Positions 20,269 to 23,200 of a DNA stretch of 64,000 nucleotides are shown in pieces (position 1 is the stretch's first letter; each line of letters opens with the position of its first letter). The position numbers were made by a program. The stretch comes from Escherichia coli (GTDB lineage: Bacteria; Pseudomonadota; Gammaproteobacteria; Enterobacterales; Enterobacteriaceae): NCBI RefSeq assembly GCF_003334355.1, contig NZ_QOWP01000011.1; one strand, written 5' to 3'.

Positions 20269-23200
20269 TAATCTTTTTGTTTGAAAAATAAAGTCTTAGC
20301 GTTGTGCGTTAAGACTTTTTTATGGGTGCCGGATACAAAAAAGGCCGCAGGCTGTTACCCCTGCGGCCGGTTTCGGGCGCATATTGCCATCACGGCAGCC
20401 TGACGCCCGTTTTCACCTTACTTCCGGTTACGCCACCAGCCGACAATCGCTGCGGTAATAATTCCCGCCAGGATCGGTGCTGCCAGGTCGTGCCAGAAAG
20501 TCATGGCAAACTGCGCGAGCGTCATATAGCCGCCTTGTTGTAATGACAACATTTTGCGGCTATTCTTGAAGTGTCTGGTTTCAAGATTAGCCCCCGTTCT
20601 GTTGTCAGGTTTTACCTCTCAACGTGCGGGGGTTTTCTCTTTCCAGCAACCAATGCCACCAGGGATAAAGCCCCCGCAACATTGCGCCTCACCGGATAAC
20701 GCCGGCTTGGTGTGGATACTACGACTCAATTCATCTTCACTTCATCCCTGAAATGTTTGCAATGAAGAGTGCATTCCGGTTTTTCAACAGCTGTTACAGT
20801 CATTTCATGAGTGCTCTGGATGAGGCTTCCAGCTCGGGTTGCCAATATTTACTTGTGGAAGTGATAAAGACAAAAATGGCCGCAGGCTGTTACCCCTGCG
20901 GCCGGTTTCGGGCGCATATTGCCATCACGGCAGCCTGACGCCCGTTTTCACCTTACTTCCGGTTACGCCACCAGCCGACAATCGCTGCGGTAATAATTCC
21001 CGCCAGGATCGGTGCTGCCAGGTCGTGCCAGAAAGTCATGGCAAACTGCGCGAGCGTCATATAGCCGCCTTGTTGTAATGACAACATTTTGCGGCTATTC
21101 TTGAAGTGTCTGGTTTCAAGATTAGCCCCCGTTCTGTTGTCAGGTTTTACCTCTCAACGTGCGGGGGTTTTCTCTTTCCAGCAACCAATGCCACCAGGGA
21201 TAAAGCCCCCGCAACATTGCGCCTCACCGGATAATTCCGGCTTGGTGTGGATACTACTTCTCAATTCATCTTCACTTCATCCCTGAAATGTTTGCAATAA
21301 AGAGTACATTCCGGCTTTTCAACAGCTGTTGCAGTCGTTTCATGAGTGCTCTGGATGATGCTTCCAGCTCGGGTTGCCAATATTTACTTGTGGAAGAGAT
21401 AAAGACAAAAATGGCCGCAGGCTGTTACCCCTGCGGCCGGTTTCGGGCGCATATTGCCATCACGGCAGCCTGACGCCCGTTTTCACCTTACTTCCGGTTA
21501 CGCCACCAGCCGACAATCGCTGCGGTAATAATTCCCGCCAGGATCGGTGCTGCCAGGTCGTGCCAGAAAGTCATGGCAAACTGCGCGAGCGTCATATAGC
21601 CGCCTTGTTGTAATGACAACATTTTGCGGCTATTCTTGAAGTGTCTGGTTTCAAGATTAGCCCCCGTTCTGTTGTCAGGTTTTACCTCTCAACGTGCGGG
21701 GGTTTTCTCTTTCCAGCAACCAATGCCACCAGGGATAAAGCCCCCGCAACATTGCGCCTCACCGGATAATTCCGGCTTGGTGTGGATACTACTTCTCAAT
21801 TCATCTTCACTTCATCCCTGAAATGTTTGCAATAAAGAGTACATTCCGGCTTTTCAACAGCTGTTGCAGTGGTTTCGTGCAGGTTGTGGTACAGGCTCGC
21901 AATTCTGATTAACGAGCTGTCCAGGTAGTATGAAGAAATACAATAAGCAGGAATTTATCTTATCTCCCCCGATTTCCGTCATCGGAGGAGATATAACTGT
22001 CAGGCAAATATCGTCATCAAATAGGCGGCAAACAGTGCCAGATGCGCTGCGCCATTGAGCACGTTAGTACGTCCGGTGGAGAAGGAGATATGGCACAGCA
22101 CTAAAGAGGCCACCATCACCACCATTTCTGGCGCACCAAGTGCAAACTGTAATTCGTTACCCGTCATAAAGGCAATTAGCGTGACGACAGGTACGGTGAG
22201 CGAAATGGTTGCTAACACTGAACCAAAGAACAGATTCATCGCGCGCTGGACCTGGTTGTTCAACACTGCTTTTAACGCACCTAAACCTTCCGGCGACAGA
22301 ATCAACAGAGCCACCAGGAAGCCAGTAAAGGCGACAGGGGCATTCATGCTGTCGAGCAATGTCTCCAGCGGGCTGGCATTCATTTTGGTGACTGCAATAA
22401 CGGCAATCAGATGGATAATCAACCAGATAGCATGCCACACGCTGCTATGGGCAGACGGTTTACCGTGATGCGGGTCGTCGTCATCACTGTCATCTTCGTG
22501 CTCGTAGACAAACAAACTTTGATGCGTTTTGGTCTGGATCAGCAAAAATACGCCATACATTGCCGCAGAAATTAATGCTACCAGTAACGCCTGACCGGTT
22601 GAAAAATTCGCCGCAGGCAGAGCCATTGGAAATACCAGTACGATTATCGCCAGGGGGAACAGCGCAATTAAATACTGCTTGATACCAAACAGATTCATAT
22701 ATTGGGTGGCAAACTTACGACCGCCCAACAATAATGAAAAGCCAACCAGCCCACCGGTAACAATCATAATGATTGAATAGAGCGTATCACGCATTAGCGT
22801 TGGCGCGGCGTCGCCGGTTGCCATTAAAGCTGAAATCAAACTGACTTCAAGAATAACCACTGAAAGGCTAAGAATAAGCGAACCGTAAGGTTCTCCCAGG
22901 CGATGGGCTAATACGTCCGCATGACGGACAACACTAAAGGCGCTACTTAAAATACCAATAAGCGCAAGAAGATTGATGGCAATGACCACTGGTAGTGTCT
23001 GGCTGCTTCCCCACAGGAACAGCACTACCAGCGCCAGAACCGGGAAAATAAGCGAAGTCTCCTTGTGGCGGGTTTTTACCGCCTCTTGAGCATTTGACAT
23101 TATGGTTATCCCTTTGCAGATGAATTTATCGAAAATGTAAAAAATAGGTAGGAAAAATAACAGAAAGTGTCTGGATATCGGTAACATTTTACGAATTTTT

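What the first reader, a model, noticed from the sequence alone, without database searches (positions are those of the whole stretch)
20335..21875. Triplicated ldr/rdl type I toxin-antitoxin module
A 535-bp unit is repeated about 2.9 times; each unit encodes an identical 35-codon hydrophobic peptide on the minus strand (MTLAQFAMTFWHDLAAPILAGIITAAIVGWWRNRK) and, on the plus strand, a hairpin-terminated segment that fits the Rdl antisense RNA. Copies 2 and 3 are nearly identical while copy 1 carries scattered substitutions, suggesting recent duplication or gene conversion. This is the known ldrABC/rdlABC locus of K-12, not a novel system, but copy number and inter-copy divergence are strain-variable.
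Basis: partly seen in the sequence, partly recalled or inferred. Interest (0 to 1): 0.45.

Follow-up and report, generated by a model that had tools for sequence, protein, structure and literature searches.

The report
Known ldr/rdl toxin-antitoxin triple repeat
Three tandem copies of E. coli's well-known Ldr toxin / Rdl antisense-RNA module lie between kdsA and chaA; this is ordinary for the species, except that here the three copies are identical.

Summary
A 535-bp unit is repeated 2.87 times at 20335-21870. Each unit carries an identical 35-codon ORF on the minus strand (Pfam Ldr_toxin, E=3.3e-26). Each also carries a 66-nt hairpin-terminated RNA gene on the plus strand (Rfam rdlD, 91.4 bits against a gathering score of 50).

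The array lies between kdsA and chaA, where K-12 has ldrABC/rdlABC. It is therefore the classical Long Direct Repeat (LDR) type I toxin-antitoxin locus. The unit was found in 5426 of 5426 complete E. coli genomes. In a 60-genome sample this site held 1, 2 or 3 copies.

One correction: the strain is not K-12. It differs from MG1655 at 44 positions in 3.7 kb, and K-12 LdrA and LdrC differ from the peptide here at two residues.

The only unusual point is homogenisation. A 357-nt stretch, covering most of each ldr transcript and the whole rdl gene, is identical in all three copies. Eight other three-copy arrays show 4-13 differences per copy pair. Differences from close relatives are about 11-fold denser in the array than in the flanks. 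This indicates gene conversion, or possibly an assembly or polishing artefact.

Verdict: already known, low interest.

The parts
20335..21870 (.). LDR array: 2.87 tandem units of 535 bp (unit 1 20335-20869, unit 2 20870-21404, partial unit 3 21405-21870). It contains three complete ldr/rdl modules.
20418..20525 (-). ldr copy 1: 35-aa toxin ORF plus stop codon, with the same sequence as K-12 LdrB
20953..21060 (-). ldr copy 2, identical to copy 1
21488..21595 (-). ldr copy 3, identical to copy 1
20573..20638 (+). rdl copy 1: 66-nt antisense antitoxin RNA. It is complementary to the ldr 5' UTR and begins 48 nt upstream of the ldr ATG.
   Evidence: Rfam RF01813 at 91.4 bits; fold -26.7 kcal/mol, z -4.48; terminator-like site
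21108..21173 (+). rdl copy 2, identical to copy 1
21643..21708 (+). rdl copy 3, identical to copy 1
20335..20368 (-). ldr intrinsic terminator of unit 1: 9-bp GC-rich stem GGCCGCAGG/CCTGCGGCC followed by a T-run. The same element is at 20870-20903 and 21405-21438.
20522..20584 (-). Candidate leader ORF (ldrX-like, 20 codons). Its TTG start lies inside the Rdl target, and its TGA stop overlaps the ldr ATG (ATGA). Also present at 21057-21119 and 21592-21654. Inferred, not shown.
   Evidence: the ldrX hypothesis is described in PMC4147584
20516..20552 (-). 5' arm of the predicted fold-back helix, which contains the ldr Shine-Dalgarno sequence (GGCGG, 20534-20530) and the AUG. It pairs with the 3' UTR arm at 20381-20409. 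Units 2 and 3 have the same element at +535 and +1070.
   Evidence: MFE fold; 33 of 34 pairs are kept in K-12 LDR-D
20381..20409 (-). 3' arm of the predicted fold-back helix, in the ldr 3' UTR
20538..20566 (+). Inferred rdl promoter: -35 TTGTAA (20538-20543), 17-nt spacer, -10 TATTCT (20561-20566), +1 at G20573
   Evidence: Read from the sequence and anchored on the Rfam 5' end. It is below the threshold of the consensus scan.
20716..20721 (-). -10-like hexamer TAGTAT upstream of the ldr transcript. It is conserved as TAGAAT in K-12 LDR-D and is also present at 21251-21256 and 21786-21791. Inferred.
19417..20271 (+). kdsA, left flank of the array
22000..23100 (-). chaA, right flank of the array

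Best explanation
This is the chromosomal Long Direct Repeat (LDR) locus of E. coli: three tandem ldr/rdl type I toxin-antitoxin modules between kdsA and chaA.

Shown here: each unit is a self-contained pair of convergent-overlapping transcription units. The minus strand encodes a roughly 370-nt ldr mRNA with a long 5' UTR, a 35-codon ORF for a single-pass membrane peptide and an intrinsic terminator. The plus strand encodes the 66-nt Rdl RNA. Rdl is perfectly complementary to the ldr 5' UTR but does not cover the ldr ribosome-binding site or start codon.

From the literature on K-12 homologues: over-produced LdrD or LdrA stops growth or kills, through an ATP drop, presumed pore formation or nucleoid condensation. 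Rdl counteracts this. The ldrD/rdlD duplex is cut by RNase III.

Inferred for this sequence:
- The full-length ldr mRNA is kept translationally silent because its Shine-Dalgarno sequence and AUG are paired with the 3' UTR in a fold-back helix.
- Rdl pairing further upstream blocks a small leader ORF whose translation would otherwise open the ldr start. That ORF starts at a TTG inside the Rdl target, and its stop overlaps the ldr ATG as ATGA. Rdl pairing may also mark the mRNA for RNase III.
- Because all three copies are identical over 357 nt, each Rdl is perfectly complementary to all three ldr mRNAs. The array therefore behaves as one module at triple dose.
- The identity arose by gene conversion among copies. 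Unequal crossing-over in the same repeats explains the 1-, 2- and 3-copy alleles in other strains.
For: - Repeat geometry.
- Rfam rdlD: three matches, 91.4 bits each, full length.
- Pfam Ldr_toxin: E=3.3e-26 over residues 1-35 of 35.
- PDB: 20 of 35 residues identical to the solved LdrD structure 5LBJ, E=1.5e-10.
- Synteny and spacing are identical to the annotated K-12 ldrA-rdlA, ldrB-rdlB and ldrC-rdlC. The peptide is 100% identical to K-12 LdrB.
- RefSeq annotates 'type I toxin-antitoxin system toxin Ldr family protein' three times at this site in the closest genomes.
- Terminator-like hairpins are present for both transcripts in every unit: 10 found against 2.3 expected.
- The Rdl fold has z=-4.48 and the ldr mRNA fold has z=-5.84.
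- The fold-back helix that sequesters the Shine-Dalgarno sequence and AUG is kept in 33 of 34 pairs in K-12 LDR-D, although the two units are only 68% identical overall.
- Literature: toxicity, Rdl rescue and the ldrX proposal (PMC4147584, PMC8167048); LdrA causes an ATP drop and is described as a pore former (PMC8309996, PMC12643268); an RNase III-cut ldrD/rdlD duplex (PMC7373196); tandem duplication as a hallmark of ldr-rdl (PMC2887945).
- Homogenisation: within-array differences over the first 366 nt of the unit are 0-1 here, against 4-13 in eight other three-copy arrays. There are 13 differences from strain PK8277 in the 1536-nt array against 6 in 8000 nt of flank.
- Unequal-crossover hybrid units are present in the 2-copy arrays of strains PRO_A-1412 and E2386.
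Against: - Nothing was measured for this strain. Transcription, toxicity and Rdl control are extrapolated from K-12 LdrD and LdrA.
- The consensus promoter scan found no sigma-70 site in the region, so both promoters are inferred from weak hexamers.
- The leader-ORF idea is not robust. In K-12 LDR-D a 1-nt indel puts the same TTG in frame with ldrD instead of giving the overlapping ATGA arrangement. A 2021 review states that the mechanism of Rdl action is still unknown (PMC8309996).
- The fold-back helix is conserved but shows no compensatory changes. Conservation alone does not prove pairing.
- Deleting ldrD or rdlD gave no phenotype in a proton-gradient assay (PMC11997105), so the physiological role remains open.
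- The perfect homogenisation could be an assembly artefact.
Confidence: 0.93

Rival explanations
1. The locus is real, but the perfect identity of the three copies is an assembly or polishing artefact. Reads from three near-identical 535-bp copies were mapped ambiguously, and a consensus was written into every copy.
For: - No array among 5426 complete E. coli genomes is identical; the best match is 99.6%. The 20.3-kb left flank, by contrast, is 100.0% identical to strain PSS-12.
- All 9 array differences from MB50, and 13 of 19 differences from PK8277, fall inside the repeat.
- At every homogenised site the window carries the state held by two of the three copies in the closest relatives. This includes alignment column 148 (window 20481), where the otherwise best donor, unit 2, holds the minority state.
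- A marker for the converted unit 1 was absent from the species-representative genomes and from the metagenome contigs.
Against: - The same 357-nt haplotype, including the T at column 148, occurs next to kdsA in an independent genome: E2386, 100% over window 20280-20640.
- Several unit-2 copies in other strains also carry T at that site, so 'unit 2 overwrote units 1 and 3' suffices without any consensus rule.
- Mosaic and hybrid units are common at this locus.
- The second tandem array in the window (RtT, 37955-38491) also has two identical copies. There, the window's copy 2 carries the state that only copy 1 holds in GPEC206-621, the one genome compared (its copies 2 and 3 differ). That is not what consensus polishing gives.
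Confidence: 0.3
2. Rdl does not act by blocking a leader ORF. It acts mainly by forming a duplex with the ldr 5' UTR that triggers RNase III cleavage and decay, or that locks the mRNA in its inactive fold.
For: - An RNase III-dependent ~21-nt duplex peak was captured in the ldrD/rdlD overlap, and the half-lives of both RNAs rise in rnc mutants (PMC7373196).
- The candidate leader ORF is not conserved in frame between LDR-D and this LDR type.
- The Shine-Dalgarno sequence and AUG are already sequestered by a conserved fold-back.
Against: - In both LDR types a GGGGG tract followed by a TTG lies inside the Rdl target, and reading from that TTG runs into the ldr start region. That is what a coupling model needs.
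- The rise in ldrD mRNA in the rnc mutant was only slight (PMC7373196).
Confidence: 0.4
3. The repeats are decaying, non-functional relics, and the ORF and RNA matches are only sequence memory.
For: Single-locus deletion (ldrD/rdlD) gave no phenotype in the one assay read here (PMC11997105). Copy number varies freely from 1 to 3.
Against: - All three ORFs are intact and identical, and all three Rdl genes match the full Rfam model with intact hairpins.
- The unit is present in 5426 of 5426 complete genomes.
- The UTR elements are more conserved than the ORF between LDR-D and this type.
- K-12 homologues are expressed and toxic (PMC4147584, PMC12643268).
Confidence: 0.02

Closest known systems
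E. coli K-12 LDR-A/B/C (ldrA-rdlA, ldrB-rdlB, ldrC-rdlC) between kdsA and chaA
   Same: Same flanking genes, same 535-bp period, same three modules and same internal spacing (48 nt from the ldr ATG to the rdl start). The peptide is identical to K-12 LdrB.
   Different: It is a different strain: 44 differences in 3684 nt. In K-12 the copies differ from one another at 5-10 sites over the first 366 nt of the unit, LdrA and LdrC carry I9 and S29, and RdlA differs at its 5' end. Here all three ldr genes and all three rdl genes are identical.
E. coli K-12 LDR-D (ldrD-rdlD, between bcsG and yhjV), the experimentally characterised member
   Same: Same architecture. The 5' UTR, the Rdl region, the Shine-Dalgarno/AUG region and the 3' UTR fold-back arm are nearly identical. 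The peptides share 20 of 35 residues, including the tryptophan and the basic C-terminus.
   Different: It is a single copy at another chromosomal site. The units are only 68% identical overall. A 1-nt indel changes the reading frame of the candidate leader ORF relative to ldr.
hok/sok (plasmid R1 and chromosomal copies)
   Same: It works in a similar way. A stable toxin mRNA with a long 5' UTR is held inactive by a 5'-3' fold-back. A short, unstable cis-antisense RNA targets the leader rather than the toxin ribosome-binding site. Translational coupling to a leader ORF (mok for hok, ldrX for ldr) has been proposed (PMC4147584, PMC8167048).
   Different: There is no sequence relationship. Hok is about 50 aa and belongs to a different family. 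Processing of the ldr mRNA at its 3' end and ldrX coupling have not been demonstrated.
Fst / RNAI-RNAII (par of pAD1), in the Fst/Ldr superfamily
   Same: The toxin has the same layout: a transmembrane helix, then a conserved tryptophan, then a charged C-terminal cluster (PMC2887945). Here this is ...IVGWWRNRK.
   Different: In Fst-like systems the antisense RNA is encoded opposite the 3' end of the toxin gene. Here it lies opposite the 5' UTR (PMC2887945).
ibs/sib tandem type I modules of E. coli
   Same: They are also duplicated within a single intergenic region (PMC2887945).
   Different: Sib RNAs overlap the whole ibs ORF and discriminate between cognate and non-cognate targets (PMC2943612). 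The three Rdl RNAs here are identical and cannot discriminate.

Membership tests
LDR ldr/rdl type I toxin-antitoxin | Long direct repeat unit of about 530 bp | tested here: met
   535-bp period, 2.87 units
LDR ldr/rdl type I toxin-antitoxin | 35-aa hydrophobic peptide of the Ldr toxin family | tested here: met
   Pfam PF13940 E=3.3e-26, full length. 100% identical to K-12 LdrB. PDB 5LBJ LdrD E=1.5e-10. NCBIfam gave no hit for the 35-aa query.
LDR ldr/rdl type I toxin-antitoxin | Cis-encoded antisense RNA of about 60-66 nt (Rdl) on the opposite strand | tested here: met
   Three Rfam RF01813 matches, 91.4 bits against a gathering score of 50, model positions 1-66
LDR ldr/rdl type I toxin-antitoxin | [quoted passage not shown] | tested here: met
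   rdl is at 20573-20638 and the ldr ATG at 20525, a 48-nt offset as in K-12
LDR ldr/rdl type I toxin-antitoxin | Chromosomal position of LDR-A/B/C between kdsA and chaA | tested here: met
LDR ldr/rdl type I toxin-antitoxin | The peptide is toxic on over-expression and Rdl relieves the toxicity | not testable with these tools
   Shown for K-12 LdrD and LdrA in the literature (PMC4147584, PMC12643268), not for this strain
LDR ldr/rdl type I toxin-antitoxin | Stable toxin mRNA and unstable antisense RNA | not testable with these tools
   This needs half-life measurements. Only a strongly structured mRNA is predicted here.
LDR ldr/rdl type I toxin-antitoxin | Leader ORF (ldrX) in the 5' UTR coupled to ldr translation. 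This is a proposed feature, not an established one. | tested here: inconclusive
   A 20-codon ORF starting at TTG has its start inside the Rdl target and an ATGA stop/start overlap. Its frame relative to ldr differs in K-12 LDR-D.
Fst/Ldr toxin superfamily | Transmembrane helix followed by a conserved tryptophan and a cluster of charged residues | tested here: met
   Read from the sequence: ...AAPILAGIITAAIVGWWRNRK. The criterion is from PMC2887945.
hok/sok-like control (it works like this; it is not a member) | Fold-back pairing of the translation start region with the 3' end of the mRNA | tested here: inconclusive
   Predicted in the MFE structure. 33 of 34 pairs are kept in LDR-D, but 31 are invariant and none shows a compensatory change.

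The most novel reading that the evidence does not exclude
The complete homogenisation is real. Gene conversion has overwritten the 357-nt stretch, covering most of each ldr transcript and the whole rdl gene, in copies 1 and 3 with the copy-2 (LdrB/RdlB) haplotype. This strain therefore carries three fully cross-reacting toxin/antitoxin pairs. That makes it a clean natural example of concerted evolution in a type I toxin-antitoxin array, and a natural test of whether copy-specific Rdl/ldr pairing matters.
Probability: 0.6. Interest if true: 0.15.

Novelty: already known. Interest (0 to 1): 0.08.

Why it matters
It matters little beyond correct annotation. The LDR locus has been described since 1999-2002, is in Rfam, Pfam and the PDB, and was found in every complete E. 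coli genome searched.

Two modest practical points follow. First, the non-K-12 RefSeq records read here annotate the Ldr ORFs but list no Rdl RNA at this locus, so a scan like this one supplies the antitoxin half. Second, the array is a recombination hot spot: 1-3 copies, hybrid units and, here, full homogenisation. Copy-specific variants at this locus are therefore unreliable strain markers and a place where assemblies can go wrong.

Tried and rejected
- Tandem Repeats Finder found no array.
- NCBIfam gave no family for the 35-aa peptide. Pfam did.
- The sigma-70 consensus scan found no promoter in 20200-22050, so the promoters were read by eye and are marked as inferred.
- The Kawano 2012 review (doi 10.4161/rna.22757) is not held. 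The ldrX description was taken from PMC4147584 and PMC8167048.
- That marker (the kdsA flank plus the T9 codon of copy 1) was searched in the species-representative genomes and in the metagenome contigs. Neither gave a match, so the source genome was not identified and no independent copy of the whole homogenised array was found.
- A 'majority-rule' test for a polishing artefact was inconclusive. It rests on one site, and some strains carry the same state in unit 2.
- The RtT array was checked as a second probe for artefactual homogenisation. Its pattern does not follow the majority rule in the one genome compared, so it gives no support either way.
- Derivation of the window's array from an E2386-like or PRO_A-like 2-copy array by simple duplication was considered and rejected. 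Unit 1 here keeps unit-1-type distal variants that those arrays lack or combine differently.
- A second species-wide scan for LDR in other genera was not run, because it would not change the verdict.
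Full report
**Observation**

A shift-by-535 self-comparison shows near-perfect identity from 20335 to 21870, and identity collapses at both ends. The repeat finder places three copies with 535/535 spacing.

An exact count gives:
- Unit 1 (20335-20869) and unit 2 (20870-21404) differ at 12 positions. One is at 20342; the other eleven lie between 20700 and 20862.
- Unit 2 and the partial unit 3 (21405-21870) differ at none of 466 positions.
- Positions 20343-20699 (357 nt) are identical in all three units.

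Tandem Repeats Finder returned nothing only because its longest period is 500.

**What is encoded**

On the minus strand each unit has the same 35-codon ORF (20418-20525, 20953-21060, 21488-21595), encoding MTLAQFAMTFWHDLAAPILAGIITAAIVGWWRNRK.
- It matches Pfam PF13940 Ldr_toxin end to end at E=3.3e-26.
- It matches the solved NMR structure of LdrD, PDB 5LBJ, at E=1.5e-10, with 20 of 35 residues identical.
- NCBIfam gave no hit.

On the plus strand each unit has a full-length match to Rfam RF01813 (rdlD antitoxin): 91.4 bits against a gathering score of 50, at 20573-20638, 21108-21173 and 21643-21708. The RNA folds into a long hairpin followed by a U-run: -26.7 kcal/mol, z=-4.48, and none of 200 shuffles folds as well. 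The terminator scan also picks it up. Each ldr ORF is followed on the minus strand by a 9-bp GC-rich hairpin and a T-run.

**Context and identity of the locus**

The array lies between kdsA (19417-20271, +) and chaA (22000-23100, -). The annotated K-12 MG1655 record has ldrA-rdlA, ldrB-rdlB and ldrC-rdlC in exactly this interval. It has the same 535-bp spacing and the same 48-nt offset between the ldr start codon and the rdl 5' end.

The window is not K-12, however.
- It differs from MG1655 at 44 positions between kdsA and chaA. One search lists 131 differences, but 87 of these are a terminal gap caused by my slice boundaries.
- K-12 LdrA and LdrC read ...AMIFW...IVSWW..., whereas all three copies here have the LdrB sequence.
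- The 20.3-kb left flank is 100.0% identical to strain PSS-12, so this is an ordinary commensal-type E. coli chromosome.

**Distribution**

- The 535-bp unit was found in 5426 of 5426 complete E. coli genomes, at 1 to 12 places per genome (median 4).
- I read the span between the flanks in an evenly spaced sample of 60 genomes. The kdsA-chaA site held 3 copies in 25 genomes, 2 copies in 16 and 1 copy in 13. Two genomes had odd spans, four gave partial matches, and none had more than 3 copies.
- Even the two nearest relatives differ: PSS-12 has three copies and PRO_A-1412 has two.

**The one unusual feature: homogenisation**

- In eight other three-copy arrays (K-12, MB50, PSS-12, CH4784, GN4143, OkiPb01707, DA33133, CDE6306) the copies differ pairwise at 4-13 sites over the first 366 nt of the unit, and they encode two or three different Ldr peptides. 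In the window the figure is 0-1, with a single peptide.
- No complete genome has the same array; the best match is 99.6% over 2601 nt.
- Differences from close relatives are concentrated in the repeat. Against MB50, 9 of 10 differences lie in the array. Against PK8277 there are 13 differences in the 1536-nt array and 6 in 8000 nt of flank, roughly 11-fold denser.
- Unit 1 keeps its own position-specific variants distal to the identical stretch, while that stretch equals units 2 and 3. This is the signature of gene conversion rather than simple duplication.
- The donor haplotype is unit-2-like except at one site, alignment column 148 (window 20481).
- The same haplotype, including that site, is the first copy of the two-copy array of strain E2386, which is 100% identical over window 20280-20640. 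There it is a hybrid of unit-1 left and unit-2 right, produced by an unequal-crossover deletion.
- PRO_A-1412 unit 2 is likewise a hybrid of units 2 and 3.

Recombination among these repeats is thus common in nature.

**The artefact alternative**

I cannot exclude that the perfect identity was written in by read-consensus polishing.
- At every homogenised site the window has the state that two of the three ancestral copies hold.
- A marker for the converted unit 1 was absent from the species-representative genomes and from the metagenome contigs.

Against this:
- The E2386 haplotype shows that the sequence exists independently.
- Some unit-2 copies in other strains already carry the state at the critical site.
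- The second tandem array in the window (RtT) has two identical copies. There, the window's copy 2 carries the state that only copy 1 holds in GPEC206-621, the one genome compared.

I put the artefact at about 0.3.

**How it most likely works**

Established for K-12 homologues in the literature:
- Over-produced LdrD is lethal, and RdlD co-expression relieves this (PMC4147584).
- LdrA is a single-pass inner-membrane peptide that collapses ATP within minutes and is regarded as a pore former (PMC8309996, PMC12643268).
- The ldrD/rdlD overlap yields an RNase III-cut duplex (PMC7373196).
- Tandem duplication is typical of ldr-rdl (PMC2887945).

Shown here from the sequence:
- Rdl is complementary to the ldr 5' UTR and not to its ribosome-binding site.
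- All three Rdl genes are identical, so each Rdl pairs perfectly with each of the three ldr mRNAs.

Inferred:
- A roughly 374-nt ldr transcript (20710-20337) folds with z=-5.84. In this fold the Shine-Dalgarno sequence GGCGG and the AUG (20552-20516) pair with the 3' UTR (20381-20409).
- Of these 34 long-range pairs, 33 are kept in K-12 LDR-D, although the two units are only 68% identical overall. The pairs are almost all invariant, so this is conservation, not covariation.
- A 20-codon ORF starts at a TTG (20584) inside the Rdl target, preceded by GGGGG, and ends in a TGA that overlaps the ldr ATG (ATGA). This fits the ldrX coupling idea of Gerdes and Wagner as described in PMC4147584.
- In LDR-D, however, a 1-nt indel puts the same TTG in frame with ldrD. 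The leader-ORF model is therefore plausible but unproven, and PMC8309996 states that the mechanism is unknown.
- Promoters are inferred only. For rdl: TTGTAA, 17 nt, TATTCT, then +1 at G20573. For ldr: a TAGTAT hexamer at 20721-20716, conserved as TAGAAT in LDR-D. The consensus scan found none.

**Comparison with what is known, and verdict**

Every defining feature of the LDR ldr/rdl family that sequence analysis can test is met: unit length, Ldr peptide, Rdl RNA, antisense geometry and chromosomal position. Toxicity and RNA stability cannot be tested here.

In its mode of control the system resembles hok/sok, but it is not a member of that family. Its toxin belongs to the Fst/Ldr superfamily (PMC2887945).

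The full homogenisation of the three copies is a small, strain-level curiosity that still needs read-level confirmation. Interest is low.

Noticed in passing
window 37955-38885 (minus strand): This is the tyrT-tyrV locus: two tRNA-Tyr genes (38497-38581, 38791-38875) and four RtT repeats of 179 bp (Rfam RF00391, 133-134 bits each). RtT copies 1 and 2 are identical. No complete E. coli genome matches the array exactly; the best match with the same copy number is 99.5%. Relatives have 2, 3 or 4 RtT copies; PSS-12, whose flanks are identical or nearly so, has 2. It is a second copy-number-variable tandem array in the same window.
   Followed up: partly
L004 (PRO_A-1412) and L014 (E2386), kdsA-chaA interval: The two-copy arrays in close relatives are unequal-crossover hybrids. 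PRO_A unit 2 combines unit-2 left with unit-3 right. E2386 unit 1 combines unit-1 left with unit-2 right. This directly shows how copy number changes at this locus.
   Followed up: yes
L002, L003, L004, L006-L011, L014, L015 (RefSeq annotation of the same locus): The non-K-12 RefSeq records read here annotate the Ldr ORFs but list no Rdl RNA gene in this interval. RtT sRNAs are annotated in the two of these strains whose tyrT locus was also read (PSS-12, L013; GPEC206-621, L012). Only the K-12 record lists rdlA, rdlB and rdlC.
   Followed up: no
window 20337-20710 (-) compared with L005 (K-12 LDR-D): Between the two LDR types, the 5' UTR, the Shine-Dalgarno/AUG region and the 3' UTR are almost invariant, while the ORF itself is much more diverged. 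A 1-nt indel just upstream of the Shine-Dalgarno sequence changes the frame of the candidate leader ORF relative to ldr.
   Followed up: partly
window 20552-20526 (-) and the same position in units 2 and 3: An in-frame ATG nine codons upstream of the annotated ldr start would give a 44-aa N-terminally extended Ldr (MLSLQQGGY + Ldr). Whether it is used is unknown. It lies in the 5' arm of the predicted fold-back helix.
   Followed up: no
window 5245-5283 and 61412-61447: Two short tandem repeats: an 18-bp unit in 2.2 copies and a 12-bp unit in 3.0 copies, both with low scores (57 and 51). Neither was examined.
   Followed up: no
E. coli genome collection, plasmid records (for example NZ_CP010135.1, 91.6 kb): About 29-33 LDR-unit matches fall on records labelled as plasmids. 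One is a 204-nt match at the very start of a record, which looks like a mis-binned or cut contig. None was examined.
   Followed up: no
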